Part shown: positions 2,140-18,263 of the stretch, piece after piece
Numbering within the stretch: position 1 is the stretch's first letter
Layout: every line of letters starts with the position of its first letter
Assembly (NCBI GenBank): GCA_001790095.1
Contig: MGBH01000001.1
Coordinates: 930,001 to 962,000 of the forward strand
DNA from: Candidatus Saccharimonadota bacterium
Lineage (GTDB): Bacteria > Patescibacteriota > Microgenomatia > UBA1406 > GWC2-37-13
Reading direction: 5' to 3'
DNA length: 32,000 nucleotides
The notes under the pieces: generated by a model
Told to the model about the DNA's origin: nothing
Database searches by the model: none
What the model saw: the letters and a program-made list of their open reading frames with translations, nothing else
Made by a program: the position numbers and the translations under genes

Positions 2140-2157
2140 TTCGCACCCCATACTCCT

Positions 2158-3231: not shown

Positions 3232-3234
3232 TCT

Positions 3235-4949: not shown

Positions 4950-7900
4950 ATGATAAAGATAAATACCGACTCTATTTTTCAATTTGTAAAGGCGCTTAAA
5001 AGAAAAAGTGTTCCAAAGAATGAAATTAAGCGCAGGCTTCTTTCTGTGGATAGGTTTATCAAATGGGCTCACCAGAAGAGCTATCTGGCAGATGATACGT
5101 TTAAGCAGATACAAGATGAGATTGCCAAGTTAGCGATTGGAGATCAGAGACTAGAGATTGGTAATCAATTTCCAATCACTAATCGCCAATCGCTAATCTC
5201 TAATTATTCTTTCGGCATCCAGCATTATATTGGTTTTGCTATCATATTTGTCCTCATGGCCATGCTTGGAGCAGGGCTTTATAATCAGTTCTTTAAAAAA
5301 ACACCTACACCGTTTGCATATTCAACTACTCCCCTACAAGGTGCTCGTGTCATTTCATTTCAAGGAAGATTGACTGATAGTTTGGGTAATCCCATCATCG
5401 CCCCCATCGATATCACCTACAATTTTTATACTGCACCATCTGGAGGATCTCCTATCGCCGGCTCTACTCGCGTATGTACGGCCAATCCTGATCAAGATGG
5501 AGTTTTTGCCAATCTCATAGGAGATGACAGCGGTCCTAGCTGTTCAACTCAACTTCCAGCTAACATTTTTACCGAAAATTCTGAAGTATTTCTTGGCGTC
5601 ACGATCGGATCAGAGATAACTGAGATGAGTCCTAGACAACAGATTGCGAACGTAGGATATGCCATGAATGCAGAGACACTTCAAGGCCTGCCTCCTGGCA
5701 CAACCGCATCATCAATTCCATTTATCAGTGCGCAAGGTGACCTGCTTATCGCAGCCTCAACTCCTGGTATACGTTCAACATATACGACAGCAAATTTTGT
5801 TATATCCAGTGCTCAAGCAACTACTATCCAATCAGCAAATGGAGGGGATATTACATTCAACGCAACAGATGGAGGCACACTTCGTTTTAATACTTTTAAT
5901 GGAACTTTAAACGAACGGATGACTATTACTCCCTATGGAAACGTGGGGATAAGCAATACCAATCCACGAGCTTCTCTTGATGTCATAGGAGATGCCTCTC
6001 TTTCAGGCAATCTTGTCTTTAATGGTCTAACCTCTCAGATCAGACAATTAAATGGCGGCAATTTATCTTTTGTTACATCCCCTGGTGGAGATCTTGGAGT
6101 CTCAACCAAAATGACACTCCTTAATAACGGAAATCTTGGTATTGGAACAACTGTTCCTATCTATAAACTTGATGTTGCAGGTGCTGCTTCAATCGCAGGC
6201 AATCTTATGACTGGCGGACAGATGCAGCTCGGAAGATTTGTAGCAGATCCGACAGCAGTTGGATCAGGGTCTATGTACTTTAATACAACAAACAACACTA
6301 TCTACTACTATAACGGAACTGACTGGACACAGGTCGGATCTGGTGGAGGCGGAGGTGACAATGTATGGCAACGGGTACTTGATGGAGTGGTCATACCTAA
6401 AATAGCTGCTGATGCACTTAATCTCGGCAACTCTGCAACAGCCTCAGCTACCGTGCACTTAGCTGGAAAAACAGGAGATAATTCATTTATAAATACGGGT
6501 AATTTTGGCATTGGGACGACAGGACCTGCTATGAAGCTGGATCTTGGAACAGGGTATTCAACAAACAACTCAACATTCAGAACAGGAACATATGAATTAC
6601 AACCATATGCATTAAACAACGCTTTTCTTGCGGAAAATGCTTATTATAACGGTTCTACCTGGACAAGGAGAAATACTGGATATGCCGAAGGATTTCAGTT
6701 TTTTAATGGTCAGACTTTATTCTTCAATAACACCAGTGGAACTGGTAGTTTTTCTGCAACTTATCCGTTCAAGACCGATTCTGGCAACTCCGGATCAGTA
6801 GCTCTCGGAGGAAATATTAATACAGCAACAGGTAATTATAGTGGTTCATCAATGGTTGTTTTAGGTACTGGCAACGTCGGAATTGGCACTACCTCTCCCC
6901 TTGAAAAACTTGATGTCCGTGGTAATGCCACAGTATCTGGATATCTCACGATCGGACAGAGTGGAGCTTTAAGAAGTCAGTATGGTCCTCTTAACTTAGC
7001 ATATAAGTCTGGAGTGAACTCATGGACTACGGGAATGGTGCTTAAGGATGGAAGTGGTAATGTAGGGATTGGAACTACTAATCCAGAAACCAAATTACAT
7101 GTATATACCAGTACCGCAATAGGAACATATCGAGATATTTATGCAAAACAAATTATTGACGATGCAGATGCAAGACTCCAAATTAGATCGGGTGATACGG
7201 GCAACTATGGCTCAGGATTAATTCTCTCAACAGCGGATAAAAGCTGGGCAATGATGGCACAAGCAAGCTCAGATAATAATAATTTTTATATAGGCTATAA
7301 ATCAAGCGCAACCGATGAAGATATAATGGCTGGTTCATCAAAGCACTTTACTATCAATACCTCTGGAAATGTTGGAATCGGGACAACAAATCCCCTTGAA
7401 AAACTTGATGTCCGTGGTAATGCCACAGTATCTGGATATCTCACGATCGGACAGAGTGGAGCTTTAAGAAGTCAGTATGGTCCTCTTAACTTAGCATATA
7501 AGTCTGGAGTGAACTCATGGACTACGGGGATGGTATTGCAGGATAGTACAGGCAATGTTGGAATCGGGACATTAAATCCTACTTCTTTTAAACTTGAGGT
7601 TGCAGGTGACATAGGCCCTGAAGCAGATAATACTCGTGATTTAGGTTCTGCATCACGCTATTGGAATACTATCTACGTAAATAATATCGTGGGAAGTGGA
7701 GCTTTGGGATATTGGCAGATAGATAGTAATGTTCTTCATCCTGCTAATCAATGGGCGTCTGTTGTTGATTTAGCAATTGGTGGAACATCTACTTCATCTG
7801 CTAAATTTCAAGTATACGGAAGTGGTACCAATGCAGGAACAGCATCTTCATCAGGACAACTCACTTTCAACAATAATTCAGGAACGCATTATGTCAACTC

Positions 7901-10900
7901 ACTTTGGAACCGTCCCCTATCCTTCCGCACTTCCCCTGGTGGAGATACAGGACTGACAGATAGATTATATATTGCAGCAAATGGCAATGTGGGAGTGGGG
8001 ACGACAAATCCAGTGGCAAAACTGGATATTAAAGGAACTTTCTCCTCTGAAGTTGGATATTCATCTTACACTGGCGATGGTGTTTGGAATGCAAATGCTC
8101 GACCTTCTAAAATTATTACGCCGAATTTGCATGAATTGCGATTTGGTTACTCTGATGCAGGAGGAGGTCAATATTATCCATCTATCGGTTTTGCAGCAAA
8201 TAGTACTGCCGTAAATGATTCTCTATTAATTCTCCAGTCAAGAGTCGCTTTAGGTACACCAGAATCATACAATCGATGGCAAGTAAGCGGAGGGGGAACA
8301 ATCAGCTGGGGTGCAGGAAGTGGTGCGGTTGATACAAACCTCTATCGCGTTGCAGCTAATATATTAGGCACCGATGACACACTATATGTAGGCGGCAATA
8401 TAGGCATCGGTACAACTTCCCCCCTTGAAAAACTTGATGTCACAGGCAATGCATCTGCCTCAGGATATGTCACGGTCGGACAAGCAGGAGCTTTAAGAAG
8501 TCAATATGGTCCGCTTAATCTTGCATACAAATCAGGATTAAATACCTGGACAACGGGGATGGTGTTAAAGGATGGAACGGGATATGTGGGGATTGGAACA
8601 ATTAATCCAACGTATTTATTAGATGTATCAGGCGGATCTGGAATTGTGGGAAGATTTAGCGGAAGAGTGATTGGAGGCGATGCAGTTGCTTCAAATGAAT
8701 TCGTAACGTTCGGTCAGTTGGCTGGAGGATCAGGACAGTATTGGCAAAGATCAGGAGAAGCTTTATCACCAAGCAATATTTGGAACTCAATAAATGTGGG
8801 AGCAACTGCAACAGCATCTGCTTATGTACATCTTGCAGGTACTCCGAATGAAAACTCATTTGTAAATACAGGAAATTTTGGCATTGGAACTATCTCTCCT
8901 GTTGCTAAACTTGATGTAGTAGGTAATGCAAGCATCTCCGCTTCTTTATCTTATAGAAGTGGAGCCCCAAATTATGTAAATGTATTAGGTAACCAACCTC
9001 TATCATTCCGAACTTCACCAGGAGGTGACGCAGGATTAACTGATAGATTTACTCTCTTGGCAAATGGAAATATAGGTATAGGAACAACAGCGCCTGCTAC
9101 AAAACTTGACATCGACACAAGTTCAAATACAACCGGATTGCGACTTCGCGGATTAGCGGAAACTGTTGAGATATCAGATATCTATGTTGGATCAAATGGC
9201 ACATTCATATTAGATAATACAGTCGGAACAGGTAGTAGTGGATATATTGATCTTCGTCCTGAAGATAATGATTATGGCATGGTCCTTCGTGAATCCGACG
9301 GTACAGGAACAGGCTCATTTGCCAATTTTTATGTCGTTGACGCTGCTACAGACTACATGAATATTATCGTCAATGGAGCTCAATCAACAACAGGATTGGT
9401 TGTAAATGCAAACGGAAATGTGGGGATAAACAATACTTCCCCCCTTGAAAAACTTGATGTCACAGGCAATGCATCTGCCTCAGGATATGTCACGGTCGGA
9501 CAAGCAGGAGCTTTAAGAAGTCAATATGGTCCTCTTAACTTAGCATATAAGTCTGGAGTGAACTCATGGACTACGGGGATGGTTCTTCAGGATGGGACAG
9601 GAAACGTGGGGATTGGGACAACAAATCCAGTGGCAAAATTACAGGTCTATCCTGGATATACCACAGGAACATACAATGGTATCAATGTATCTGGCGGGAC
9701 AACAGGTGGAACTTATAACGCTTTCTCAACGGATGCATTTGTAAACAGTGGAGCTGGAACAGTTACCGGTTTATCGATCACCAGCAGGATACAAAACGCC
9801 GCTACTTCTTCTAATGCATACGGCATTAATGCTACTGTATATAAGGGTAGCGGTTCAACCGGAACGACAACTGCTATTTATGGAGCTAATTTAAGAGTTC
9901 TAAACTCAAGTAGTGATGTTATTACAGATACTTACGGTCTAAAAATAGCTGACATCTCAAATTCCGGAACCATGAGCAATACTTATGGAGTGTATGTAGG
10001 AGACATTACTGCTGGAACCCAAACCAATACCCCATTCTCATTTTATGCATCTGACGCAAACGCATTAAATTACTTTGCTGGAAATGTCGGAATAGGTTCA
10101 TCTGCTCCCACCTCCTTCAAACTTGAGGTTGCAGGTGACATAGGCCCTGATGCTGATGGTACTCGGGATATTGGTTCACCCTCCAGGTACTATGACACCG
10201 TCTATGCAAACAATGTGGTAGGACTTGGTGCTCTGGGATACTGGTCAAGAGGTACGGGCGTATTGTTTCCTTCAACCACCACTGATGGAGTAGCTGCGAC
10301 AGGTTCAGCAACCACCGTTGCAACATTCACCGCCTCAGGGACAAATGATGCAGCACGTTTGGGAGGATCAGCTAACTATATAACCGTATCCCCCAGTGGA
10401 GATCTTTCATTCACCGGAGCTAATGCTGATGCGATCAATAAAGTATCAGGGACGTTAAATATAAACACAACCAATAACCAGGCGATAACTACCGGGACTG
10501 GTCAGGTCACCTTGGCGGGTAATGTGGATGCCACCAACGGACTTGATGTGACTACCGCTAACCTTACGGTTGGAGGAGCAAACTTTACCGTGGTTCCGGG
10601 TACGGGAAATATCACAACAGCGGGTACTGTTTCCATTGCAACCGGTCAATCATACACAGGAGCAGGCACCGTAACCCTCTCCTCTGCTGCTGCATCGAGT
10701 CTTACCATCAACTCAGGAACAACCGGTGCCATAGCTATTGGGAATGATGCATCTGCCGAAACAATTGGTCTGGGTACTGGTGCGGCAGCAAAAACAATAA
10801 CCATAGGCAATACCACAGGCGCAACCGCACTCAATCAACGGGTGGGTACAGGGAACTATACTCTTGACGGAGTTGCTGGATCAACCTATGCGTTTGGTGC

Positions 10901-13900
10901 ATCAACAACCACTGGCACCATGACAATCGGAGGCACAGCACAGACAGGACTTCTCACTTTGGGACAAAGCTCTGGTACCAATATTGTTGCTATTGGATCA
11001 GGTACAGGAGCAACAACCGTACAGATAGCAAACGGCGCAACAAACGGAAAAACAGTACAGATTGCAACAGGAGCTGTTGCAAATACCGTTTCTATGGGAT
11101 CAACCACGGGCGCATCTGCTACTACTCTTAATGCTGGATCAGGGAATCTTACCCTAAATGCCACATCCGGCAATGTAGCACTTCAAACTACTACAGCCGG
11201 AAATATTACCCTTACGCCAGGAGGCACCGGAGACATAAACATCACGGCTGATGCCGACTCATTTGTAAATATTGCAGGCCTCACAGACAGCACTGGCACC
11301 AGTCTTTGTCTTGATGGTTCAAGCAATCTTATTACTTGTGCAGGAGGAGGCACAGGCAATACATTGCAGGCTGCATATGATAATGGAAATACCATCACCA
11401 CAACCACTGCAAGAAATATTGCATTTACTTTAGGAGAAGTTGCAACACCTACTTCCCTTACTCTTGAAAATCAAGACACAGCCGGAACAAATGCGCAGCG
11501 AATCTTTAATTCCATTGCTTCAGGAACATTGACTAATGGACTTCTGGTTGAACAAACAGGAGCGGGTACCATGACCAGCGGAATAAATATAACACAAACC
11601 GCCGGAACTATATCAAGCGGTCTTACTTTCACTGGGATAACCAATGATATTACAACCGGTGCAAACCAACACCTGGCCCTTATGCCAAATGGAACTGGCA
11701 ATGTGGGTATAGGAACAACAAGTCCTGCTTATAACTTAGAGATCGAGGACGTTGGTGATGCTGCGATATATTTAGAAGCTGATTCCGCCGGAACTGGATC
11801 AGAAGATAATAATGCGTTTATTAAACTGAGTCAAGATGGTTTGCTTGTACAATCAATATTTGGAACTGTAGGCAATGCTGGATATGATCCAGAAAATGTC
11901 GCATATACTAATACCTTAGCTAACGCAACACTCCTGGGAACCTTAGACAATAATGGAGCGCTTCAGTTTGGGACAAACGACGCAGTCCGTATGACAATTG
12001 CAGCAACTGGAAACGTAGGTATTGGGACAACTTCTCCCACTCTTTTTAACCTTCAAGTAACAGGCAATATAGGCCCAACTACTACAAACAACTATGATCT
12101 TGGATTAACAGGTACCAGATGGAGAACAGGATATTTTGGAACTTCTCTTGACTCTCCTTCTTTAACCTATGCAGGTACTCTTGCATTGTCTGCAACAGGA
12201 GCAAATATAATAACGATGTCAACCAATGGATCTGAGAGATGGAGAGTTGCATCCAATGGAGTACTTCAGTCAAACGGTGCACAAACCATACAGACCTCAA
12301 CCGGTAATCTTACTCTTGCAACAGCTGCAGGAAACGGACATATACTTCTTTCTCCAAATGGGACGGGAAATGTGGGGGTGGGGACAACAACACCCACATC
12401 TTTCAAACTTGAAGTTGCCGGTAATATCGGACCTGATAGCGATATTACCAGAAATATAGGAGCATACAATAAGCGAATTGCCAATACATACACAGGAGTA
12501 ATTGATGAAAGCATATTTACCCAGGCAGGTGAAAATGCCATCAAGAATTCTGATCGTTACAATGGTGGACCGGGTGGATGGGGTACTGCGGCAAACTATT
12601 CTGAGGCTGTTGTGGTTGGGCCACAAGGAACAGAGGTACGAGCAATTACAAATTCAACTCCATTGAGCACGGCCGGATTATTAACTGATTATTTACCCGT
12701 TGATCCGAAAAAAGCATATCTGCTTGAATACTGGATCAAGCAGGATGACATAAGTGCAGGAACTGGAACAAATTATATTGGACGTGAAGAATATACAAGC
12801 GGTAAAGCTAATAATGACCAGGGAACCGGCCCGTACACGTGGGGCGGTCAAAAACCCCCTGCAGCAAATACATGGTATCATGTATATGGAATTATTCCTC
12901 CGCATGACTCAGGCGCTGAAGTAAGTCACACAGCAACAAACAGTACGATCACTCCTGGAACTGAGTATAAATTTTGGAGTTCATACACTGCCTATATCAG
13001 GGTTAAGATATATTTAAACTACAACCAACCAAATCCTTCACAGGTCTGGGTAACAGGAGTTGCACTTCGTCCCCTTTCAAGTGGCGGTGTTAATTCTTTT
13101 TTTGCTACACCAGGTGATGCCTCAACCTCGGGAAATCTTGCGTTTGTTACTGGGAAAACAGAAAGACTTACCATCACCTCTAACGGTAATGTTGGTATTG
13201 GTACTACTGCTCCTGCTACAGGCGCAAAATTGGATGTATATGGCGGACCTATCCGGCTTGGAGCAAATACTAGTGCAAACAACCAATTAAATACGACCGC
13301 CGGAAGTGCACCATCAGGAGACCTATATTGGGGCTCTCGAACAATCTGTGATGATTCGGGAAACTGCGGCACAGCCGGAGTGTCGCCTGATTCACTAGAC
13401 TATACAGAATTCCTAGATACCATGACTCTTGATGCAAATCTTATCTTGAATCAAACAACCTACACCTGGACGCAGAACTTTACCGGGACAACGACCACGG
13501 GCTACACTTACAATGCTAACTCTCTCACATCAGGTAAAGCTCTTAGTATCGCTTCTTCTGCTACTGCATTTACCGGCACATTAGCGCAAGTTTCTTTAAC
13601 AGGCAATAACGCCGCCAATACGGGTACCATATTTAAAGCATCTTCAAACGGAGCTTTAAATACCGGCACTGTTGCTATGATTACCAATCTGGGAGCCGGA
13701 ACATCATTTAGAGTAAATGATGAGACAGGAGATGCTGACACTACTCCATTTTTAATCGATGCAGGTGGCAATGTAGGAATAGGTACTACTTCACCTGTTT
13801 CTAAACTTCTTCTTGACGATGTTACTCCAACTATAACGGGATGGCAGAGTCTTACCATAAGAAGCACCGATGCTTTAGCTATAGATAAAGGAGGAACAAT

Positions 13901-16900
13901 CGGTTTTGGAGGCAAGTATACCTCAGGAGGCACATATGCAACATGGGCAGGTATAGCTGGATTGAAAGAAAATGCAACAGATTCAAATACTTCAGGATAT
14001 TTATCGCTGCGGACAAGAGCAAACGGAGGAAACCTAACAGAACAAATGAGAATTGCAAGTAACGGCAATGTCGGCATCGGCACTACAAACCCTTCTCTTT
14101 TTAAACTTCAAGTAACAGGCAATATAGGCCCAACTACTACAAACAACTATGATCTTGGATTAACAGGTACCAGATGGAGAACAGGATATTTTGGAACTTC
14201 TCTTGACTCTCCTTCTTTAACCTATGCAGGTACTCTTGCATTGTCTGCAACAGGAGCAAATATAATAACGATGTCAACCAATGGATCTGAGAGATGGAGA
14301 GTTGCATCCAATGGAGTACTTCAGTCAAACGGTGCACAAACCATACAGACCTCAACCGGTAATCTTACTCTTGCAACAGCTGCAGGAAACGGACATATAC
14401 TTCTTTCTCCAAATGGGACGGGAAATGTGGGTATAGGAACGACGGCGCCAAGCAATCCCCTTGCAGTCATCTCTACCACTACTCCTCAGCTTCGTGTTGG
14501 TTATGACAACACAACCAATTACTTCACATCGGCAGTTGCTTCAAACGGATCAGTCACGTTTAACGCTAATGGAGCATCTGCCGCCTTTACTTTTTCAGAT
14601 CCTACTACAATATCCTCAACCGCAAATCCTGGGCTCACTGTAGGTAACGGTACGACGGGTTATCTGAAAATCGGCGGTTCAACCATATCTGATGCTGCAG
14701 GAAACCTCACATTAGATAGTGACAGTGGTACTATCAGCGCTTCAGATATTTTAAACATGGGTTGGAACGCCATAACTGGCGCATGGATAGGAGATGCTGA
14801 TTCTTATGGAGGCGGAGGATATAACAATATCGCAAATCATAACAATAATCTTATCCGAGCGGATGAAAAGGAAACCGTTACCATGAATAATGGTTGTGAT
14901 GCAGGATCAATCGCTAATATGTTTGATGGTGACCCTTCAACTATTTGTCAACTCACTGATGCTGCACCCAATGAGATCATTACTATAGATATGGGAAGCT
15001 ATGAGCATTATTGGACAGGGTTTGAGATCATGTGGACATATGATCGAGGTACTAACAACGTAACAATAGAAAAATACTGGGATCCTGACTCAACAGGTGG
15101 CTGTGATACGTGGGCAACCATTTATAGCGGAGCAGCTACAGGATACTCTACAAAAGTAAATGCGCCAGGCAATTATATATGTCAGTACCGCATCACAATA
15201 ACTGGTACGCCAGATGTTGCAAATGATGTTCGTATCGGAGACATACGAGGGTTCCAATATTATAACGACCAGAAAAATGATCTATATGCCGATATTACCG
15301 GCGCTACTTTTTACGGTGCAGTACAAGTTGGAACATCTACGACGAACAGAGACCTTGATGTATATGGCAATGTCGGCATAGTCTCCAGTAACACCACCGG
15401 TACCACAACCAGTAGTAGTCTTGGTCTTTCTGCCAACTCCCTCACAACCGGAACAGGTTTGTACGCTGCTTCATCTACCCTAACCTCAGGTAAATTAGTA
15501 GATCTTCAGGTGAGTGGGACTGCTGCAGCTGCATCTCAAACAGGACTTAATATTCTAACTGCCGGTGCCAATGGTACTGCGGGTATCACTTCTTATGGTG
15601 CACAAATATCAAATACCCATACAGGTACTACCTCTACTAATGTTGCCCTCTATCTCAATGCCTCAGGGGGTACTACAGCAAACTATGGTTTGATTGTAAA
15701 CGCTGGTAATGTGGGTATCGGAACGACAGCACCGGGAGCAAAACTTGACGTGTATAATCCATCAGGCACCACCCTTGCTTTAGCAGCCCAGGTCCAAAAC
15801 CTTAATAATGCAACTGGTCAAAATGGGCTTCTTGTCAATGTCGCCCGTGTGACTACAGATGATGCCACATACGGACTCAATGTCCAAGGAGGCGGCACAA
15901 GCCGACTTTACGTGAGAGGTGACGGATTTGTGGGTATTGGTACTACCGCCCAATCAGCCAACTGGCCTACTGATCTGCTTTTTATAAACGGTGAATTTAC
16001 TGCTGACAAATTCAATGATTCAGGAAGCAATAACCGCTATATTGATCCCAATGGCACCTCACGAATAAGCTATCTTGAGATGAGAAACGATCTCACCTTT
16101 ATTGACGCCGGCAATGCCGGCATCGGTAAAATCAACTCAAACGGAAGTTCTGTTATTATTGAAGGCCCTACTGGAGGCACAACAGACCTCTGTGTTGAGG
16201 ATCCTGATACTGGAACAGGCGGAGAATGTGACGGTAAAATCGACGCAGGTACCATCGACCCTCCCTACACTATAAATGGGAAAAAATATGCTACATACAT
16301 GGCCTCCATGACAGGGGTCAAAGAAGAAACTACCGATACCGTACATATTGAGTCAAAGATAGCAGAAGGCAGATATGCGTATGTTATTGACTTTAATAAT
16401 CAACCCATTGGATCTGACTTATGGCTTTTTAGTAAAACAACTCATCTTAAAGATAACCTAGATCATATGAGCGTTCTTCTCACTCCAACTGATGATACAC
16501 GGACGTGGTACAAAGTAGATAACACCGGAGATCATCTCACCCTTATTCTTTATTCTTCACGACCAACACAGATATCATATCGACTTACTGCTCCACGCTT
16601 CAATGCTGAAAATTTTGCCAATATTAGACCAGATAATGCTCCTGGCGGATTCTTGATAAACGATCCCGATATCATAGGTTCCCCCTATACTATCACTGAA
16701 GTTGGATCTTTAACCGATACGCATCATATAGCTTCAACTCAACCAACCAATACCTCGCTTGAAAGCTTAAGAGAGACAATATATCAAGTTGTGCACAACA
16801 CAAGCGGAGAAATGATAGAAGAGGTAGCAGTTTTCAACAAAATATTGATAGGTAAAATCCAGGCTGGTTTTGTGGAAGCACAAAATGCTGTTGTGACCAA

Positions 16901-18263
16901 CGTATTAAACGCTTCACATATCGTATCTGAAAATATTTCAAGCTATTCGCTACAAGTCACAAAACTTTTTGTAAACGAAAAGATAATCAGCCCGATCGTT
17001 GAGACTACAGATCTGTCAGCCTCAGGTACTGCAACTCTTGCGACTATAAAGACCGATACCATCAAACCGCAAGAACAAAATGTCACGATAGACCTCAATA
17101 CTTCTTCAGACAAAGGTACATTTGCCAAGCTCATCGTAAACGGTATCAACAATATAACTGTTGCATCTATTGATGAAGCAGGTAACGCTACGTTTGCAGG
17201 CTCCCTGACTAGCGTATCAGTGATCAGTGATCAGCTGTCAGTAAATGATGCAACCATATCAGGAAGTCTAACTGCCAATGAGGCCAGTCTTTCGGGTAAA
17301 CTCATTGCGAAAGAGATTGTATCTGATAATATCAGCGAGCTTACGGAAAGAACCGCCGCGGTTGAGGAGCAAAGCGGGAAAACCGCGGAGGTTAATGAGG
17401 TTTTGAGCAACAGTATTAATCAGGTTCAACAGGATCTTGCGGCGATAAAAAACCTACCTCTCCCTAACCCCGCCTATTATCAAAATTTGAGTGACTACCC
17501 TGTTGCAACTGTTTCTTCACTTCTTGCTCAATCAATTCAGACAGAAGATCTTACTGCGACTGGCAATGTAAACCTTTACAAAGCCTCAATCGCTGATTCC
17601 CTCACGGCCGGAACTATTTTTATGCAGGATAACTCTATCCTCTCTCTTTCATGGGAGCTCAAACTTTCAGCTCTTGCTCAGATCACTCTTTTTGACGGAA
17701 GTGTGGTCATCGCAAAAAATGGAAACATTACTACAAAAGGAGAACTCATCGCTGAGGGAGGAGTCCGGACGGATGAAATACAATCAATCGATGGAAAAAA
17801 AGACATCGCTATCAAACTAAATTCTCAATTGTCAAATTCCAATGAAAATTCATTGAAAAATGCAAAATTGAAAATTGAAAATTCCGAAGGCATGGATGTT
17901 GCCTCAATCGATGCCTCAGGCGCAGCCCGTCTCAACAGTTTAGCCTTCACTCATATATCTACCAACTCTGCTATCATTGCTGATTCAGGAGAACGCACTG
18001 TGGATGATGAAATCATCCCGGCTATTGAAACCAATGCTGAGGTGGCAGGTACCGGAGTCCTGCCCGTGGATGCACCGGAGATTATAATATACAATAATAG
18101 TGTTACGGCAGATTCTCTCATCTATCTGACTCCGATTGGTGAAACGCCAATCAATCAGCTCACGGTTGTGAAAAAGGAGATACATGGCCGTCCATATTTC
18201 TCAGTCTCATCCGGTACTACTCTCCATCCAGAGATCAAGTTTAATTGGTTGATTATAAACTAG
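4950..18263 (+). CDS. Giant (4437 aa) N-terminally membrane-anchored surface protein with tail-fibre-like repeats and lectin-like modules
   Basis: A single uninterrupted ORF. About 90 aa form a cytoplasmic head, followed by one TM helix (YIGFAIIFVLMAMLGAGLYNQFF, ~5226-5290). By my count there are about 25 copies of the motif GNVGIGTTxPxxKLDV/KLEV, often followed by G(D/N)IGPxxDxTRDLGSxSxRW. That signature is typical of phage tail-fibre-domain proteins. The protein also contains a G/T/A-rich beta-helix-like tract (~10260-11300), a CBM-like module, a discoidin-like module and a long C-terminal stalk. Confidence 0.9.
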   Translation: MIKINTDSIFQFVKALKRKSVPKNEIKRRLLSVDRFIKWAHQKSYLADDTFKQIQDEIAKLAIGDQRLEIGNQFPITNRQSLISNYSFGIQHYIGFAIIFVLMAMLGAGLYNQFFKKTPTPFAYSTTPLQGARVISFQGRLTDSLGNPIIAPIDITYNFYTAPSGGSPIAGSTRVCTANPDQDGVFANLIGDDSGPSCSTQLPANIFTENSEVFLGVTIGSEITEMSPRQQIANVGYAMNAETLQGLPPGTTASSIPFISAQGDLLIAASTPGIRSTYTTANFVISSAQATTIQSANGGDITFNATDGGTLRFNTFNGTLNERMTITPYGNVGISNTNPRASLDVIGDASLSGNLVFNGLTSQIRQLNGGNLSFVTSPGGDLGVSTKMTLLNNGNLGIGTTVPIYKLDVAGAASIAGNLMTGGQMQLGRFVADPTAVGSGSMYFNTTNNTIYYYNGTDWTQVGSGGGGGDNVWQRVLDGVVIPKIAADALNLGNSATASATVHLAGKTGDNSFINTGNFGIGTTGPAMKLDLGTGYSTNNSTFRTGTYELQPYALNNAFLAENAYYNGSTWTRRNTGYAEGFQFFNGQTLFFNNTSGTGSFSATYPFKTDSGNSGSVALGGNINTATGNYSGSSMVVLGTGNVGIGTTSPLEKLDVRGNATVSGYLTIGQSGALRSQYGPLNLAYKSGVNSWTTGMVLKDGSGNVGIGTTNPETKLHVYTSTAIGTYRDIYAKQIIDDADARLQIRSGDTGNYGSGLILSTADKSWAMMAQASSDNNNFYIGYKSSATDEDIMAGSSKHFTINTSGNVGIGTTNPLEKLDVRGNATVSGYLTIGQSGALRSQYGPLNLAYKSGVNSWTTGMVLQDSTGNVGIGTLNPTSFKLEVAGDIGPEADNTRDLGSASRYWNTIYVNNIVGSGALGYWQIDSNVLHPANQWASVVDLAIGGTSTSSAKFQVYGSGTNAGTASSSGQLTFNNNSGTHYVNSLWNRPLSFRTSPGGDTGLTDRLYIAANGNVGVGTTNPVAKLDIKGTFSSEVGYSSYTGDGVWNANARPSKIITPNLHELRFGYSDAGGGQYYPSIGFAANSTAVNDSLLILQSRVALGTPESYNRWQVSGGGTISWGAGSGAVDTNLYRVAANILGTDDTLYVGGNIGIGTTSPLEKLDVTGNASASGYVTVGQAGALRSQYGPLNLAYKSGLNTWTTGMVLKDGTGYVGIGTINPTYLLDVSGGSGIVGRFSGRVIGGDAVASNEFVTFGQLAGGSGQYWQRSGEALSPSNIWNSINVGATATASAYVHLAGTPNENSFVNTGNFGIGTISPVAKLDVVGNASISASLSYRSGAPNYVNVLGNQPLSFRTSPGGDAGLTDRFTLLANGNIGIGTTAPATKLDIDTSSNTTGLRLRGLAETVEISDIYVGSNGTFILDNTVGTGSSGYIDLRPEDNDYGMVLRESDGTGTGSFANFYVVDAATDYMNIIVNGAQSTTGLVVNANGNVGINNTSPLEKLDVTGNASASGYVTVGQAGALRSQYGPLNLAYKSGVNSWTTGMVLQDGTGNVGIGTTNPVAKLQVYPGYTTGTYNGINVSGGTTGGTYNAFSTDAFVNSGAGTVTGLSITSRIQNAATSSNAYGINATVYKGSGSTGTTTAIYGANLRVLNSSSDVITDTYGLKIADISNSGTMSNTYGVYVGDITAGTQTNTPFSFYASDANALNYFAGNVGIGSSAPTSFKLEVAGDIGPDADGTRDIGSPSRYYDTVYANNVVGLGALGYWSRGTGVLFPSTTTDGVAATGSATTVATFTASGTNDAARLGGSANYITVSPSGDLSFTGANADAINKVSGTLNINTTNNQAITTGTGQVTLAGNVDATNGLDVTTANLTVGGANFTVVPGTGNITTAGTVSIATGQSYTGAGTVTLSSAAASSLTINSGTTGAIAIGNDASAETIGLGTGAAAKTITIGNTTGATALNQRVGTGNYTLDGVAGSTYAFGASTTTGTMTIGGTAQTGLLTLGQSSGTNIVAIGSGTGATTVQIANGATNGKTVQIATGAVANTVSMGSTTGASATTLNAGSGNLTLNATSGNVALQTTTAGNITLTPGGTGDINITADADSFVNIAGLTDSTGTSLCLDGSSNLITCAGGGTGNTLQAAYDNGNTITTTTARNIAFTLGEVATPTSLTLENQDTAGTNAQRIFNSIASGTLTNGLLVEQTGAGTMTSGINITQTAGTISSGLTFTGITNDITTGANQHLALMPNGTGNVGIGTTSPAYNLEIEDVGDAAIYLEADSAGTGSEDNNAFIKLSQDGLLVQSIFGTVGNAGYDPENVAYTNTLANATLLGTLDNNGALQFGTNDAVRMTIAATGNVGIGTTSPTLFNLQVTGNIGPTTTNNYDLGLTGTRWRTGYFGTSLDSPSLTYAGTLALSATGANIITMSTNGSERWRVASNGVLQSNGAQTIQTSTGNLTLATAAGNGHILLSPNGTGNVGVGTTTPTSFKLEVAGNIGPDSDITRNIGAYNKRIANTYTGVIDESIFTQAGENAIKNSDRYNGGPGGWGTAANYSEAVVVGPQGTEVRAITNSTPLSTAGLLTDYLPVDPKKAYLLEYWIKQDDISAGTGTNYIGREEYTSGKANNDQGTGPYTWGGQKPPAANTWYHVYGIIPPHDSGAEVSHTATNSTITPGTEYKFWSSYTAYIRVKIYLNYNQPNPSQVWVTGVALRPLSSGGVNSFFATPGDASTSGNLAFVTGKTERLTITSNGNVGIGTTAPATGAKLDVYGGPIRLGANTSANNQLNTTAGSAPSGDLYWGSRTICDDSGNCGTAGVSPDSLDYTEFLDTMTLDANLILNQTTYTWTQNFTGTTTTGYTYNANSLTSGKALSIASSATAFTGTLAQVSLTGNNAANTGTIFKASSNGALNTGTVAMITNLGAGTSFRVNDETGDADTTPFLIDAGGNVGIGTTSPVSKLLLDDVTPTITGWQSLTIRSTDALAIDKGGTIGFGGKYTSGGTYATWAGIAGLKENATDSNTSGYLSLRTRANGGNLTEQMRIASNGNVGIGTTNPSLFKLQVTGNIGPTTTNNYDLGLTGTRWRTGYFGTSLDSPSLTYAGTLALSATGANIITMSTNGSERWRVASNGVLQSNGAQTIQTSTGNLTLATAAGNGHILLSPNGTGNVGIGTTAPSNPLAVISTTTPQLRVGYDNTTNYFTSAVASNGSVTFNANGASAAFTFSDPTTISSTANPGLTVGNGTTGYLKIGGSTISDAAGNLTLDSDSGTISASDILNMGWNAITGAWIGDADSYGGGGYNNIANHNNNLIRADEKETVTMNNGCDAGSIANMFDGDPSTICQLTDAAPNEIITIDMGSYEHYWTGFEIMWTYDRGTNNVTIEKYWDPDSTGGCDTWATIYSGAATGYSTKVNAPGNYICQYRITITGTPDVANDVRIGDIRGFQYYNDQKNDLYADITGATFYGAVQVGTSTTNRDLDVYGNVGIVSSNTTGTTTSSSLGLSANSLTTGTGLYAASSTLTSGKLVDLQVSGTAAAASQTGLNILTAGANGTAGITSYGAQISNTHTGTTSTNVALYLNASGGTTANYGLIVNAGNVGIGTTAPGAKLDVYNPSGTTLALAAQVQNLNNATGQNGLLVNVARVTTDDATYGLNVQGGGTSRLYVRGDGFVGIGTTAQSANWPTDLLFINGEFTADKFNDSGSNNRYIDPNGTSRISYLEMRNDLTFIDAGNAGIGKINSNGSSVIIEGPTGGTTDLCVEDPDTGTGGECDGKIDAGTIDPPYTINGKKYATYMASMTGVKEETTDTVHIESKIAEGRYAYVIDFNNQPIGSDLWLFSKTTHLKDNLDHMSVLLTPTDDTRTWYKVDNTGDHLTLILYSSRPTQISYRLTAPRFNAENFANIRPDNAPGGFLINDPDIIGSPYTITEVGSLTDTHHIASTQPTNTSLESLRETIYQVVHNTSGEMIEEVAVFNKILIGKIQAGFVEAQNAVVTNVLNASHIVSENISSYSLQVTKLFVNEKIISPIVETTDLSASGTATLATIKTDTIKPQEQNVTIDLNTSSDKGTFAKLIVNGINNITVASIDEAGNATFAGSLTSVSVISDQLSVNDATISGSLTANEASLSGKLIAKEIVSDNISELTERTAAVEEQSGKTAEVNEVLSNSINQVQQDLAAIKNLPLPNPAYYQNLSDYPVATVSSLLAQSIQTEDLTATGNVNLYKASIADSLTAGTIFMQDNSILSLSWELKLSALAQITLFDGSVVIAKNGNITTKGELIAEGGVRTDEIQSIDGKKDIAIKLNSQLSNSNENSLKNAKLKIENSEGMDVASIDASGAARLNSLAFTHISTNSAIIADSGERTVDDEIIPAIETNAEVAGTGVLPVDAPEIIIYNNSVTADSLIYLTPIGETPINQLTVVKKEIHGRPYFSVSSGTTLHPEIKFNWLIIN
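5161..5206 (+). repeat. Degenerate heptanucleotide array (CYAATCN-type units) inside the cytoplasmic head of the giant ORF
   Basis: Units read as gtaatca(5161-5167) ... ccaatca(5172-5178) ctaatcg(5179-5185) ccaatcg(5186-5192) ctaatct(5193-5199) ctaatta(5200-5206). The region is translated as GNQFPITNRQSLISNY. Confidence 0.7.
6896..7033 (+). repeat. Cassette copy 1 (138-bp perfect direct repeat with 7391-7528)
   Basis: Compared base by base, with an offset of 495 nt (165 codons). It encodes SPLEKLDVRGNATVSGYLTIGQSGALRSQYGPLNLAYKSGVNSWTTG. Flanks diverge immediately on both sides. Confidence 0.95.
7391..7528 (+). repeat. Cassette copy 2 (138-bp perfect direct repeat with 6896-7033)
   Basis: See copy 1. 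The two are identical over 138 bp. Confidence 0.95.
8415..8512 (+). repeat. Cassette copy 3 (98-bp perfect direct repeat with 9435-9532)
   Basis: The offset is 1020 nt (340 codons). It encodes SPLEKLDVTGNASASGYVTVGQAGALRSQYGP. This is a variant of the same cassette as copies 1 and 2. Confidence 0.95.
9435..9583 (+). repeat. Cassette copy 4, mosaic: 5' part identical to copy 3, 3' part identical to copy 2
   Basis: 9435-9532 is identical to 8415-8512. 9525-9583 is identical to 7476-7534 (59 bp), whereas copy 3 differs there (ccgcttaatcttgcatacaaatcagg). The crossover falls within the shared tatggtcc. Confidence 0.9.
12051..12376 (+). repeat. 326-bp perfect direct repeat, copy A (with 14106-14431)
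   Basis: The offset is 2055 nt (685 codons). Identity was checked line by line and is supported by the identical antisense ORFs 12082..12300 and 14137..14355 in the track. It encodes LQVTGNIGPTTTNNYDLGLTGTRWRTGYFGTSLDSPSLTYAGTLALSATGANIITMSTNGSERWRVASNGVLQSNGAQTIQTSTGNLTLATAAGNGHILLSPNGTGNVG. Confidence 0.97.
12531..13075 (+). other. CBM4_9-like / jelly-roll carbohydrate-binding module within the giant protein
   Basis: The stretch ENAIKNSDRYNGGPGGWGTAANYSEAVVVGPQGTEVRAI...DPKKAYLLEYWIKQDD...NTWYHVYGIIPP...YIRVKIYLNY...VWVTGVALRP breaks the fibre-repeat pattern. It has the W / sG..v / Y.l..W.k / W..v spacing of CBM-type sandwiches. Recognition is by eye. Confidence 0.4.
14106..14431 (+). repeat. 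326-bp perfect direct repeat, copy B
   Basis: See copy A. There is one mismatch at 12050/14105 and the next at 12377/14432. Flanking sequence is clearly diverged. Confidence 0.97.
14821..15265 (+). other. F5/8 type C (discoidin/CBM32)-like module within the giant protein
   Basis: The stretch AGSIANMFDGDPSTICQL...EIITIDMGSYEHYWTGFEIMWTYDRGTNNVTIEKYW...CDTWATIYSG...YRITITG fits the a.n.fDGd..T.W...i.iDLG....i..i.i.W pattern of discoidin domains. Confidence 0.5.
17832..17883 (+). repeat. Copy of the dispersed heptamer-based module, in-frame in the giant ORF (SNSNENSLKNAKLKIEN)
   Basis: tcaaattccaatga (17832-17845) is 14/14 identical to the reverse complement of 28628-28641. aaattcattgaaaaatgcaaaattgaaaattgaaaatt (17846-17883) matches the reverse complement of 28575-28612 at 36/38. 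Confidence 0.9.

What the first reader, a model, noticed from the sequence alone, without database searches (positions are those of the whole stretch)
4950..18263. 4437-aa membrane-anchored protein built from phage-tail-fibre-type repeats
The ORF is uninterrupted. It has a ~90-aa cytoplasmic head and a single TM helix.

The exterior carries about 25 GNVGIGTTxPxxKL(D/E/H)V motifs. Many are followed by G(D/N)IGPxxDxTRDLGSxSxRW..(I/V)Y, the signature I associate with tail-fibre-domain proteins.

It also has a G/T/A-rich beta-helix-like tract (10260-11300), two lectin-like modules and a ~900-aa C-terminal stalk. No capsid, portal, terminase, sheath or tube genes are nearby, so this looks like a cellular adhesin made from fibre parts rather than a prophage fibre.

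In an organism of this genome style, a cell-anchored fibre tens of nanometres long is a natural candidate for host or partner-cell attachment.
Basis: partly seen in the sequence, partly recalled or inferred. Interest (0 to 1): 0.7.

Follow-up and report, generated by a model that had tools for sequence, protein, structure and literature searches.

The report
Giant membrane-anchored fibre of a Roizmanbacterium
A tiny, probably host-dependent groundwater bacterium encodes a 4437-residue surface fibre, rooted in its own membrane and built from the parts that phages and the predator Bdellovibrio use to grab other cells, which makes it a concrete candidate for how such bacteria attach to partners.

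Summary
Window 4950-18263 (+) is one open 4437-codon frame with a roughly 90-aa N-terminal head, a single hydrophobic helix and 25 GNVGIGTTxPxxKL motifs.

- **Source:** identical protein in Candidatus Roizmanbacteria genomes, on five contigs longer than 1 Mb.
- **Shaft:** a profile of its own repeats matches only Bdellovibrio mosaic adhesive trimer (MAT) fibres in the PDB (Bd2133, E 1e-25). Phage tail-fibre families also match.
- **Head:** half of an integrase core-binding (SAM-like) domain.
- **Post-helix domain:** the next 130 aa weakly resemble the MAT N-domain.
- **Inserts:** one is a divergent CBM32/discoidin-like module; the other is unresolved.
- **C-terminal module:** about 780 aa, conserved, with a phage receptor-binding-type beta-sandwich, a long helix and a terminal beta domain.
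- **Not a prophage:** 80 Microgenomates loci share flanking cellular genes and both protein ends. The middle ~3000 aa vary freely, with complete orthologues of 1237-3272 aa.
- **Upstream SAM-like gene:** either separate (53 loci) or fused to the fibre (23 loci), never both.

Best reading: a trimeric, glycan-binding attachment fibre more than 100 nm long. This is a new variant of the MAT/tail-fibre kind. Its function is inferred, not shown. A 326-nt exact internal repeat leaves the copy number unverified.

The parts
4217..4762 (+). Stand-alone 181-aa protein with a complete integrase N-terminal SAM-like (core-binding) domain. It is the trans partner or split-off counterpart of the fibre's cytoplasmic head.
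   Evidence: Pfam Phage_int_SAM_5 E 1.3e-10 and Phage_int_SAM_1 E 2.6e-8. It is a separate upstream gene in 53 related loci and fused into the fibre ORF in 23, never both.
4950..5207 (+). Cytoplasmic head of the giant protein (aa 1-86). It corresponds to the second half of a SAM-like/core-binding domain, plus a linker.
   Evidence: Weak hits to XerD/XerC N-terminal regions (E 0.009-0.03) and Phage_int_SAM_1 (E 0.11). 15 of 24 family members hit XerC N-terminus, best 1.2e-13. UniRef names the protein 'Core-binding (CB) domain-containing protein'. Alignment A1.
5208..5294 (+). Single transmembrane helix (aa about 87-115), acting as a signal-anchor.
   Evidence: It is the only hydropathy peak above 1.6 in 4437 aa. 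It is conserved in position in alignment A1.
5307..5699 (+). Conserved beta-rich domain just outside the membrane (aa about 120-250), weakly MAT-N-like. Its signature is SFQGRLTD ... PRQQIANVGYA.NAETLQG.
   Evidence: Holds most of the invariant and near-invariant columns of A1. NCBIfam NF053851 Bdello_MAT_N scores 18.6 bits against a cut-off of 60, E 0.0012; 15 of 24 relatives match, best 1.6e-5.
5847..10256 (+). Shaft I: 15 capping-loop motifs with beta-helix-type modules. Includes four copies of a roughly 90-aa unit that are 63-80% identical.
   Evidence: Repeat profile against PDB hits MAT fibres at E 9.8e-26. PHROG tail-fibre families at E 4e-15.
10257..11354 (+). T/G/A-rich repetitive tract (aa 1770-2135); fold unverified.
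   Evidence: Composition and self-similarity of 33-37% identity between units about 90 aa apart. No match in PDB, Pfam, PHROG or NCBIfam.
11355..12461 (+). Shaft II, with motifs at aa 2250, 2354 and 2473. Contains the first copy of the near-identical internal duplication.
12051..12376 (+). First copy of a 326-nt exact direct repeat. The second copy is at 14106-14431, 2055 nt (685 codons) downstream.
   Evidence: The flanks are about 93% identical.
12462..13133 (+). Insert module 1 (aa 2505-2728): a globular-looking orphan domain of unresolved fold.
   Evidence: No hit in Pfam, PHROG or PDB beyond the flanking motif, or in the word-indexed search of 5.8 billion proteins. It is absent from the 80 related loci. 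Its last strand weakly resembles the CBM_4_9 domain of the neighbouring S74 fibre (E 0.009).
13134..14732 (+). Shaft III, with motifs at aa 2746, 2940, 3039 and 3158. Contains the second repeat copy.
14733..15335 (+). Insert module 2 (aa 3262-3462): a divergent CBM32 / F5-F8 type C (discoidin)-like carbohydrate-binding module.
   Evidence: Only 34 relatives among 1.84 billion representatives; the five I read in full (P0153-P0155, P0158, P0181) are, with one exception (P0181), fibre proteins. Family profile against PDB: CBM32 4a3z E 1.8e-4, discoidin domains 4zz5/2rva E 9e-3. 6 of 23 members weakly hit F5_F8_type_C models.
15336..16232 (+). Shaft IV, with motifs at aa 3473, 3586 and 3659.
   Evidence: PHROG tail fibre family, E 0.0012.
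16233..16664 (+). Domain D1 (aa 3762-3905): a conserved beta-sandwich of phage receptor-binding-protein type. In many shorter relatives it is the very C-terminus.
   Evidence: About 50% identity to dozens of proteins. AF2 pLDDT above 90. Foldseek: cyanophage Pam1 tailspike RBD 7eea, prob 1.0, E 0.08; phage tail proteins, H-type lectin and RBP sandwich in BFVD, best E 4e-4.
16665..17993 (+). C-terminal extension (aa 3906-4348), with a 42-residue helix at aa 4126-4167 (nt 17325-17450). Mostly low-confidence extended beta segments.
   Evidence: AF2 model. Conserved in 23 related loci and in collagen-like proteins of other Microgenomates.
17994..18260 (+). Terminal beta domain (aa 4349-4437, ending FNWLIIN), related to the K1-lyase_C tailspike end domain.
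   Evidence: AF2 pLDDT 85-94. Homologues P0040 and P0055 hit PF24146 K1-lyase_C at this position (E 1e-5 and 4e-7). The giant itself reaches only E 0.16.
18452..21832 (+). Paralogous shorter fibre: N-terminal TM helix, CBM_4_9 domain, three capping-loop motifs and a C-terminal Peptidase_S74 chaperone followed by a helical, coiled-coil-like tail (only sub-threshold Pfam hints). It is 1126 aa from the ATG at 18452, or 1130 aa from a TTG at 18440.
   Evidence: PF13884 E 1.7e-11 at aa 939-993. CBM_4_9 E 5e-8, above the cut-off. Sequence read. Shares repeats with the giant at E 2e-10.

Best explanation
This is a chromosomal, vertically inherited surface fibre of a Candidatus Roizmanbacteria bacterium (Microgenomates, CPR).

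Architecture and assembly:
- Each chain is held in the cytoplasmic membrane by one N-terminal helix.
- Half of an integrase core-binding (SAM-like) domain lies in the cytoplasm. A separate full SAM-like protein is encoded just upstream.
- About 4300 residues lie outside the cell.
- By homology with Bdellovibrio MAT fibres and phage tail fibres, three chains are expected to intertwine into a beta-helical fibre punctuated by GNVGIGTTxP..KL capping loops.
- The conserved C-terminal module (RBP-type beta-sandwich, long helix, terminal beta domain) probably sets the trimer register and forms the distal end.
- At the MAT rise of about 0.4 Angstrom per residue, the fibre would be roughly 100-170 nm long.

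Proposed function:
- Lineage-specific inserts, one CBM32/discoidin-like and one orphan, together with the RBP-type sandwich would bind glycans on a partner or host cell.
- The freely varying middle would tune reach and specificity.

Shown here: the ORF, the anchor helix by hydropathy, the repeat homology, the domain matches, the synteny, and the pattern of conserved ends with a variable middle. Inferred: trimerisation, length, surface exposure, glycan binding and the attachment role.
For: - ORF, TM helix and motifs.
- Identical 4437-aa protein under four NCBI accessions of Candidatus Roizmanbacteria, on five contigs longer than 1 Mb.
- Repeat profile hits only MAT fibres in the PDB (E 9.8e-26 to 6e-8). 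The single-sequence search gave the same hits.
- MAT capping-loop motif and fibre dimensions: PMC10769870.
- Phage tail-fibre families and genes.
- N-domain weakly MAT-N-like in 15 of 24 relatives.
- CBM32/discoidin-like insert.
- D1 has an RBP-type sandwich fold, plus a long helix and a confident terminal domain. K1-lyase_C is found in homologues at the same end.
- 404 relatives in GTDB species genomes; among the 80 loci kept, mostly Roizmanbacteria/Microgenomates. Complete orthologues are 1237-3272 aa and five run beyond 3600 aa.
- Flanking cellular genes are shared: upstream genes in 54-66 of the 80 loci (the SAM-like query hit 79, but part of those hits are the fibre's own head); downstream d227 in 12, TPR in 8, M23 and GDH in 3 each, where the stored flank reached that far.
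- Only the N-terminal ~420 aa and the C-terminal ~500-850 aa are conserved.
- No relatives of either end in IMG/VR.
- No virion genes in the window.
Against: - No experiment or proteome shows that the protein is made, trimeric or exposed on the surface.
- AF2 was run on monomers only, and most of the C-terminal extension was low-confidence (mean pLDDT 66).
- The fold matches for D1 have weak E-values (0.08 in the PDB, 4e-4 in BFVD).
- Unlike MAT fibres, the distal end is the conserved part and the middle is the variable part. That fits a structural or folding role at least as well as a variable receptor-binding tip.
- Insert module 1 and the T/G/A-rich tract have no detectable relatives.
- The host of Roizmanbacteria, and even their episymbiotic lifestyle, are inferred from other CPR lineages.
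- A 326-nt exact internal repeat means the copy number of a 685-codon unit is not verified.
Confidence: 0.6

Rival explanations
1. It is an envelope or coat fibre with a mainly structural role, such as a spacer, a surface-layer-like fibrillar coat, or a means of cell-cell cohesion within the species, rather than a host-recognition adhesin. The conserved C-terminal module would bind a conserved self component or serve only as the folding nucleus.
For: - It sits at a single conserved syntenic locus across the lineage.
- The distal end is conserved while the middle varies.
- The same C-terminal module caps collagen-like and other shafts in Gottesman-, Woese-, Levy- and Collierbacteria.
- Its neighbours are envelope genes: a pilin-like protein, a 10-TM plus TPR membrane protein, an M23/LysM peptidase and a sugar transferase.
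Against: - Its closest characterised relatives, MAT fibres and phage fibres, are recognition devices (PMC10769870).
- A CBM32-like module and an RBP-type sandwich suggest ligand binding.
- Rapid turnover of the middle region and lineage-specific inserts fit an arms race or host switching better than a housekeeping coat.
Confidence: 0.2
2. It is a domesticated or remnant prophage tail fibre, or part of a tailocin-like element, and not a cellular gene.
For: The shaft repeats, the second signature and the end domains are shared with phage fibres and tailspikes. The adjacent gene carries a Peptidase_S74 chaperone typical of phage fibres. The upstream gene has an integrase-type SAM-like domain.
Against: - There are no capsid, portal, terminase, tube, sheath or baseplate genes in 32 kb, and no tRNA.
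- No integrase catalytic domain is present; only the core-binding part is.
- The same cellular flanks recur in dozens of genomes.
- The N-terminal membrane anchor is conserved in 404 genomic relatives.
- Neither end is found in 2.9 million viral contigs.
Confidence: 0.03
3. The length is partly an assembly artefact. Repeats caused a false join or a wrong copy number, so the true gene is shorter, longer or split.
For: A 326-nt exact direct repeat, 2055 nt apart, is longer than a short read. Most relatives in public data are truncated at contig ends, showing that such genes break assemblies. Cluster mates of 1090-2557 aa are fragments.
Against: - The identical 4437-aa product occurs on five contigs longer than 1 Mb, under four accessions.
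- The flanks of the two repeat copies differ (about 93% identity), so two copies exist and A-R-U-R-B is the only path that uses each once.
- The repeat spacing is a multiple of 3, so any copy-number error keeps the frame.
- All other repeats are only 60-80% identical at the DNA level.
- Orthologues of 2500-3270 aa, and some beyond 3600 aa, have the same two ends.
Confidence: 0.07
4. The fibre is primarily a transmembrane signalling or DNA-handling device. Contact at the outside is relayed to a cytoplasmic DNA-binding-type (core-binding) head, which works together with the upstream SAM-like protein. This would be analogous to membrane-tethered one-component regulators.
For: The cytoplasmic head is conserved and of a DNA-binding fold class. 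The complete SAM-like domain is either fused or encoded immediately upstream, in a mutually exclusive pattern (53 against 23 loci, 0 with both). comEA/comEC lie a few kb upstream in the source contig.
Against: No DNA binding has been tested. The head of this protein is only half a domain, with weak scores. Helical bundles often serve purely as protein-protein adaptors. The proximity of the competence genes may be coincidental.
Confidence: 0.1

Closest known systems
Mosaic adhesive trimer (MAT) fibres of Bdellovibrio bacteriovorus (Bd2133, Bd1334, Bd3182, Bd2439; Caulton et al. 2024, PMC10769870)
   Same: The same repeated capping-loop / beta-helix element: the repeat profile hits only these structures in the PDB, at E 1e-25 to 6e-8. 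Both are cell-borne rather than virion-borne. There is a weak match to the MAT N-domain in the equivalent position. S74-terminated and non-S74 paralogues lie side by side. Carbohydrate-binding and RBP-type end modules are present. The organism is expected to live off other cells.
   Different: It is four times longer (4437 aa against about 1000 aa). It is anchored by a cytoplasmic core-binding-type head plus a TM helix instead of a signal peptide. It comes from a CPR bacterium, presumably without an outer membrane (my knowledge of CPR envelopes, not tested), rather than a Gram-negative predator. The distal module is the conserved part and the middle is variable, the reverse of the MAT logic of a conserved base and a swapped tip. 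The NCBIfam MAT-N score is far below its cut-off.
Phage tail fibres and tailspikes with the Peptidase_S74 intramolecular chaperone (T5 pb1 4UW8, K1F endosialidase 3GW6; cyanophage fibres)
   Same: The shaft repeats, the DNTxDLGSxSxRWxxxY signature (P-SCSP1u gp28, E 7e-4), the RBP-type sandwich and the K1-lyase_C-type end. PHROG tail-fibre hits. The neighbouring gene carries S74 itself.
   Different: The giant has no S74 domain and no virion attachment domain. It is not in a phage genome. It has a membrane anchor.
Collagen-like and other fibre proteins of Microgenomates that share the C-terminal module (for example 'Triple helix repeat-containing collagen', Candidatus Gottesmanbacteria, P0008)
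   Same: The C-terminal roughly 780 aa (D1 plus extension plus terminal domain) are 30-48% identical over their full length.
   Different: Their shafts are collagen triple helix (PF01391), glycine-rich or short. Several are fragments. No SAM-like head was detected in those I scanned with Pfam, except P0028; several are N-terminally truncated, so this is unsettled.
Trimeric autotransporter adhesins and giant Gram-positive adhesins (for example YadA/BadA, Ebh). This comparison rests on my own knowledge and was not tested here.
   Same: They are long, repetitive, surface-anchored fibres whose length varies by repeat gain and loss, and they are used for attachment.
   Different: No sequence or fold match was found. 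Their anchors differ (a C-terminal outer-membrane barrel or an LPXTG/C-terminal TM), and so do their repeat folds.
Giant genes of Omnitrophota (West-Roberts et al. 2023 preprint, 10.1101/2023.11.21.568195)
   Same: These are very large, mostly extracellular proteins of ultrasmall bacteria, proposed to act on other cells. Discoidin-type modules occur in some of them.
   Different: Those are longer than 30,000 aa, with many TM helices and SecA-like domains. None of these features is present here.

Membership tests
MAT superfamily (Caulton et al. 2024) | Fibre shaft of beta-helix modules bounded by capping loops with the consensus V-G-G/N-pi-x-x-P-x-x-x-L | tested here: met
   25 motifs. The profile of 23 repeat segments hits Bd2133 at 9.8e-26, Bd1334 at 3.5e-17, Bd3182 at 1.5e-11 and Bd2439 at 6e-8, and nothing else in the PDB. 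The consensus is taken from PMC10769870.
MAT superfamily (Caulton et al. 2024) | Conserved beta-rich domain of about 130 aa immediately after the export signal | tested here: inconclusive
   A conserved 130-aa domain is in the right place (A1). NCBIfam NF053851 Bdello_MAT_N gives only 18.6 bits against a cut-off of 60, over profile positions 120-147. 15 of 24 relatives match weakly, best E 1.6e-5.
MAT superfamily (Caulton et al. 2024) | N-terminal cleavable signal peptide, with the protein retained on the outer surface of a diderm | tested here: not met
   An 86-aa folded-type head precedes the only hydrophobic helix, at aa 87-115. The organism is a CPR bacterium.
MAT superfamily (Caulton et al. 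2024) | C-terminus is either an S74 chaperone or a variable adhesive tip domain | tested here: inconclusive
   The giant has no S74. It has an RBP-type sandwich and a K1-lyase_C-like end domain, but this end is conserved rather than variable among orthologues. The neighbouring paralogue ends in S74.
MAT superfamily (Caulton et al. 2024) | Homotrimer with meandering chains; surface display; binding to prey epitopes | not testable with these tools
   Only monomer AF2 was available. No expression or binding data exist.
Phage tail fibre / tailspike with Peptidase_S74 (PF13884) | C-terminal S74 intramolecular chaperone with the SDxxxK motif | tested here: not met
   The giant has no PF13884 hit, either whole or in tiles. 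The neighbour at 18452-21832 does: E 1.7e-11, with ASSLRFKKNI in place of SDxxxK.
Phage tail fibre / tailspike with Peptidase_S74 (PF13884) | Encoded within a phage or prophage alongside virion genes | tested here: not met
   Cellular genes lie on both sides. Synteny is conserved across Microgenomates. The conserved ends have no relatives in IMG/VR.
Tyrosine recombinase / integrase (the source databases call it 'Core-binding domain-containing protein') | Core-binding (SAM-like) N-domain followed by the catalytic Phage_integrase domain | tested here: not met
   Only a partial core-binding-type segment is present at aa 3-57, with weak scores. No catalytic domain was found in the giant or in the upstream 181-aa protein.
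CBM32 / F5-F8 type C (discoidin) domain (insert module 2) | Sequence match to the family models or to solved members | tested here: inconclusive
   The giant's own module has no Pfam hit. The family profile hits CBM32 4a3z at E 1.8e-4 over about 130 residues, and discoidin domains at 9e-3. 6 of 23 relatives hit F5_F8_type_C models, best 4e-4, below the cut-offs.
Omnitrophota-type giant genes | Longer than 30,000 aa, many TM helices, SecA DEAD-like domains | tested here: not met
   The giant is 4437 aa with one TM helix and no SecA hit.

The most novel reading that the evidence does not exclude
The conserved cytoplasmic core-binding (integrase SAM-like) head, completed either in cis or by the gene immediately upstream, would make this a new class of transmembrane device. 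An extracellular fibre more than 100 nm long would be mechanically or allosterically coupled to a DNA-binding-type module inside the cell. That could report host contact to the chromosome, or tether or hand over DNA at the contact site; comEA/comEC lie a few kb away.
Probability: 0.1. Interest if true: 0.85.

Novelty: new variant of a known kind. Interest (0 to 1): 0.6.

Why it matters
How CPR/Patescibacteria find and hold on to other cells is largely unknown outside a few cultivated Saccharibacteria, where type IV pili are implicated.

This locus provides a conserved, easily recognised candidate for a whole class, the Roizmanbacteria and related Microgenomates. The candidate is a membrane-rooted fibre homologous to the prey-recognition fibres of Bdellovibrio and to phage receptor-binding fibres.

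- It extends the MAT/tail-fibre toolkit to a CPR bacterium, presumably one without an outer membrane, and to a new anchoring mode.
- The pattern of conserved ends and a free-running middle, with rare carbohydrate-binding inserts, offers a handle for predicting host range from genomes.
- The cis/trans SAM-like head is an unexplained feature that invites experiment.
- In the held literature, no paper names both MAT fibres and CPR lineages, and none both Peptidase_S74 and CPR.

Tried and rejected
- **Full-length homology search:** it timed out, so I searched the C-terminal module, the N-terminus and the two insert modules separately.
- **Pfam:** nothing above threshold on the whole protein or on 10 tiles. 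NCBIfam gave only weak hits.
- **Insert modules:** a concatenated query found nothing in the word-indexed database. Module 1 stayed orphan after Pfam, PHROG and PDB searches.
- **T/G/A-rich tract:** no PDB hit and no clear periodicity, so 'beta-helix-like' is unverified.
- **C-terminal extension as a degenerate S74 chaperone tail:** pairwise BLAST against the neighbour's post-S74 region was not significant. Rejected.
- **Diversity-generating retroelement:** a bAvd-like / 23S-IVP gene lies at 25585-25884, but no reverse-transcriptase domain was found in the ORFs I scanned with Pfam and no template/variable repeat pair in the window. Not pursued.
- **Polymorphic toxin / contact-dependent inhibition:** the C-terminus is conserved and not toxin-like. 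Rejected.
- **Promoter and terminator scans** around the gene were uninformative.


Full report
**1. The observation**

- Window 4950-18263 (+) is one uninterrupted ATG-to-stop frame of 4437 aa.
- The only hydropathy peak lies at aa 87-115. It follows an 86-aa head with 16 K+R against 9 D+E.
- A relaxed form of the GNVGIGT motif occurs 25 times between aa 330 and 3659. In 1000 shuffles of the protein the mean count was 0.05 and the maximum 1.
- The second signature, G(D/N)IGP..D.T(R/Y)D(L/I)G...RW..Y, follows only 5 of the 25 motifs. 'Many' is therefore an overstatement.
- The T/G/A-rich tract is real: aa 1770-2135 is 21% T, 17% G and 14% A, with internal copies about 90 aa apart. Nothing confirms its fold.

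**2. Source and reliability**

- The exact protein is on record under four NCBI accessions (OGK62849.1 and others) of Candidatus Roizmanbacteria bacteria. It lies on five contigs longer than 1 Mb; the window corresponds to about 920-952 kb of MGBF01000001.1.
- UniRef calls it a 'Core-binding (CB) domain-containing protein'.
- At the DNA level the repeats are 60-80% identical, with one exception. A 326-nt exact direct repeat (12051-12376 = 14106-14431) lies 2055 nt, or 685 codons, apart.
- The flanks of the two copies differ, so both copies exist, and any copy-number error would keep the frame. Only spanning reads can settle the copy number.
- Orthologues with the same two ends reach 3272 aa complete, and more than 3600 aa where my 10-kb flank ended. 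A multi-thousand-residue product is therefore normal for this family.

**3. What the shaft is**

- A single-sequence search of the PDB found only Bdellovibrio 'cell wall surface anchor family' proteins. These are the mosaic adhesive trimer (MAT) fibres of Caulton et al. 2024 (PMC10769870).
- A profile built from 23 of the giant's own motif-centred segments hits Bd2133 (E 9.8e-26, three stretches), Bd1334 (3.5e-17), Bd3182 (1.5e-11) and Bd2439 (6e-8). It hits nothing else among 177,635 PDB sequences.
- In those crystal structures the motif forms the capping loops of trimeric, intertwined beta-helix modules, which are structural homologues of the T5 and K1F tail fibre and tailspike.
- Tiles of the giant also match PHROG tail-fibre families (phrog_9942 at E 4e-15, phrog_18345 at 9e-9). 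They match cyanophage 'tail fiber' and 'chaperone of endosialidase' genes by tblastn at 27-35% identity, E 4e-7.
- A profile of the second signature matches the fibre gp28 of cyanophage P-SCSP1u (GHLRPASNNTYDLGTSSDRWRNVY, E 7e-4). It matches two tail spikes (E 0.025, 0.068) and K5 lyase (E 0.14) only weakly.

**4. The N-terminal end**

- Relatives of aa 1-330 are almost all from Roizmanbacteria or Microgenomates. Most are cut at contig ends.
- In alignment A1 the head aligns with the second half of an integrase N-terminal SAM-like (core-binding) domain. Several relatives carry the whole domain.
- 15 of 24 members hit the XerC N-terminus, best E 1.2e-13. No catalytic integrase domain is present anywhere in them.
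- After the helix comes a well-conserved domain of about 130 aa (SFQGRLTD ... PRQQIANVGYA.NAETLQG).
- That domain gives a short, sub-threshold match to NCBIfam Bdello_MAT_N: 18.6 bits against a cut-off of 60. 15 of 24 relatives match, best E 1.6e-5. This is suggestive of the MAT N-domain but not proof.

**5. The inserts**

- Module 2 (aa 3262-3462) has only 34 relatives among 1.84 billion representative proteins. Of the five I read in full, four (P0153-P0155, P0158) are fibre proteins carrying the same motif, two of them ending in S74 and one a 2821-aa SAM-head fibre; the fifth (P0181) is an unrelated repetitive protein.
- The profile of that family matches CBM32 of a Clostridium GH89 enzyme (4a3z, E 1.8e-4). 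It also matches discoidin domains of a Paenibacillus glucanase (E 9e-3).
- 6 of 23 members weakly hit F5_F8_type_C models. 'Lectin-like' is therefore reasonable for module 2.
- Module 1 (aa 2505-2728) has no detectable relative. Only its last strand resembles the bona fide CBM_4_9 domain of the neighbouring S74 fibre.
- Neither module occurs in the 80 related loci. Both are lineage-specific insertions.

**6. The C-terminal module**

- The last roughly 780 aa have 141 relatives. Several are the ends of collagen-like, glycine-rich, S74-containing or SAM-headed proteins from several Microgenomates groups.
- The module has sub-parts. D1 (aa 3762-3905, about 50% identity) is the very C-terminus of many shorter proteins.
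- The remainder, aa 3906-4437, is an extension found in a subset of relatives.
- P0028 (889 aa) is a 'mini' version of the giant: head, helix, N-domain and first 460 aa joined directly to the last 450 aa.
- AF2 with a 67-sequence alignment gave three confident elements: D1, a 42-residue helix (aa 4126-4167) and a terminal beta domain (aa 4349-4437).
- D1 modelled alone (pLDDT 84) resembles the receptor-binding domain of the cyanophage Pam1 tailspike (7eea, prob 1.0, rmsd 3.5 Angstrom over 90 columns, E 0.08).
- In BFVD, D1 resembles phage tail proteins, an H-type lectin domain, an 'RBP sandwich domain' and K1-lyase_C proteins, best E 4e-4.
- Homologues hit Pfam K1-lyase_C at the position of the giant's last domain. 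The giant itself reaches only E 0.16.

**7. Cellular, not viral**

- A pattern scan of one genome per GTDB species found 404 relatives of the N-terminal region. The 80 loci kept are mostly Roizmanbacteria or Microgenomates.
- Upstream, three secreted or membrane proteins of 320-357 aa and a small Big_1 protein recur in 54-66 of the 80 loci. The SAM-like query hit 79, but part of those hits are the fibre's own head.
- The C-terminal module is found in all 23 loci where the gene end was captured.
- The downstream pilin-like gene recurs in 12 loci, the 10-TM + TPR gene in 8, and M23/LysM and glutamate dehydrogenase in 3 each. These are the loci where the stored flank reached that far.
- The window holds no virion genes and no tRNA.
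- Neither D1 nor the N-terminal region has a relative in 2.9 million IMG/VR contigs, by the same kind of scan.
- Among ten complete orthologues, only the first ~420 aa and the last ~500-850 aa align. Giant aa 703-1489, 1568-2249 and 2494-3584 have no counterpart at 40% identity or above.

**8. The upstream SAM-like gene**

- The 181-aa product of 4217-4762 has a complete SAM-like domain.
- In 53 related loci such a gene lies separately just upstream of a fibre with a half head. In 23 loci the full domain is fused to the fibre. No locus has both.
- This mutual exclusion argues that the small protein and the fibre head work together.
- What a DNA-binding-type fold does at the cytoplasmic foot of a fibre is not explained by anything I found.

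**9. Mechanism proposed**

Shown here:
- One ORF with a single hydropathic helix.
- MAT and tail-fibre homology of the shaft.
- The module matches, the conserved ends with a variable middle, and the conserved cellular synteny.

Inferred:
- The chain is exported with its N-terminus retained in the membrane.
- Three chains trimerise. The conserved C-terminal module, which is exported last, probably sets the register, as C-terminal domains do in phage fibres.
- The neighbouring paralogue uses an S74 chaperone for this step.
- The fibre projects about 100-170 nm. This scales from 370 aa = 142-150 Angstrom in Bd2133 (PMC10769870) to about 4300 extracellular residues, of which not all need be fibrous.
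- The CBM32-like insert, module 1 and the RBP-type sandwich bind surface glycans of another cell.
- Repeat gain and loss at the capping-loop motifs generates the length and content variation.

The main reservation is that the distal end is conserved, unlike in MAT fibres. A structural or coat role, or a conserved ligand, remains a serious alternative.

**10. Comparison and novelty**

- The protein works like, and shares its shaft with, MAT fibres and phage fibres. It fails or leaves open three MAT criteria: no signal peptide, a sub-threshold N-domain match, and no variable tip. It also lacks S74.
- It is best filed as a new variant of the MAT/tail-fibre-derived cellular fibre. The variant is CPR-specific and giant, and it is anchored by a core-binding-type head plus a TM helix.
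- Large surface proteins in CPR have been noted in general (PMC13059738).
- In the held literature no paper names both MAT fibres and CPR lineages, and none both Peptidase_S74 and CPR. The other searches turned up no description of this fibre family either.

Noticed in passing
window 17843-17883 (+) and 28575-28615 (-): A 41-nt sequence, 95% identical, lies in frame in two unrelated genes. In the giant it codes ..SNSNENSLKNAKLKIENSEG... In thioredoxin reductase it codes ..SNSNDQLKTENSLKIAKLKTENFD.., just before the conserved TSVRGVFAAGD motif. It has the same orientation relative to each coding strand. This looks like a short in-frame insertion element, in the manner of Rickettsia palindromic elements. 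The pattern was absent from the 80 related loci.
   Followed up: partly
window 12051-12376 and 14106-14431: A 326-nt exact direct repeat lies inside the giant gene, 2055 nt (685 codons) apart, within a duplication that is otherwise about 93% identical. It reflects recent duplication or gene conversion, and is the one place where the assembly cannot be checked without reads.
   Followed up: partly
window 4217-4762 compared with L002-L081: The complete SAM-like domain is either a separate upstream gene (53 loci) or fused to the fibre (23 loci), never both. This is a fission/fusion pattern linking the two proteins.
   Followed up: yes
window 22755-23438 and 23503-25536: The 227-aa protein starts with a type IV pilin-like N-terminus (..AVTLLEIMMIVAIITLL..). 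The 677-aa protein after it has about 10 TM helices followed by TPR repeats, which is reminiscent of O-antigen-ligase or pilin-glycosylase-type proteins. Both recur downstream of the fibre in related loci.
   Followed up: partly
window 103-3663: Four conserved upstream genes have no Pfam family except a weak Big_1 hit. One is a 320-aa protein with no TM helix, two are proteins of 338 and 357 aa with a signal-like N-terminus and a C-terminal TM helix, and one is a small TM + Big_1 protein on the opposite strand. They recur in 54-66 of the 80 related loci and may form a surface complex with the fibre.
   Followed up: partly
window 25585-25884: A 99-aa protein of the 23S rRNA intervening-sequence family has a weak bAvd-like hit. 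bAvd is the accessory protein of diversity-generating retroelements. No reverse-transcriptase domain turned up in the ORFs I scanned, and no template/variable repeat pair was found in the window.
   Followed up: partly
L001 1323-3615 (source contig, about 3.7-1.4 kb before the window start): comEA-like (SLBB, HHH_3) and comEC-like (Competence, Lactamase_B) DNA-uptake genes lie a few kb upstream of the fibre locus.
   Followed up: no
window 18452-21832: The neighbouring S74 fibre has ASSLRFKKNI where the family consensus is SDxxxK, that is Ser instead of Asp at the second position. It also carries a CBM_4_9 domain that scores above the Pfam cut-off, at aa about 558-695 counted from the TTG at 18440. 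Its start is ATG 18452 (1126 aa, as in NCBI) rather than the upstream TTG at 18440.
   Followed up: partly
L004, L006, L008-L010 and many others: Many genome records titled 'uncultured Gammaproteobacteria bacterium' (TPA assemblies) carry this Microgenomates-type locus with the same flanking genes. Their organism labels look wrong.
   Followed up: no
P0003, P0055 and other hits: Several proteins that share the C-terminal module begin with a fragment of an intein splicing domain (PF14890, profile positions 75-155). This suggests inteins or truncated gene calls within fibre genes of related organisms.
   Followed up: no
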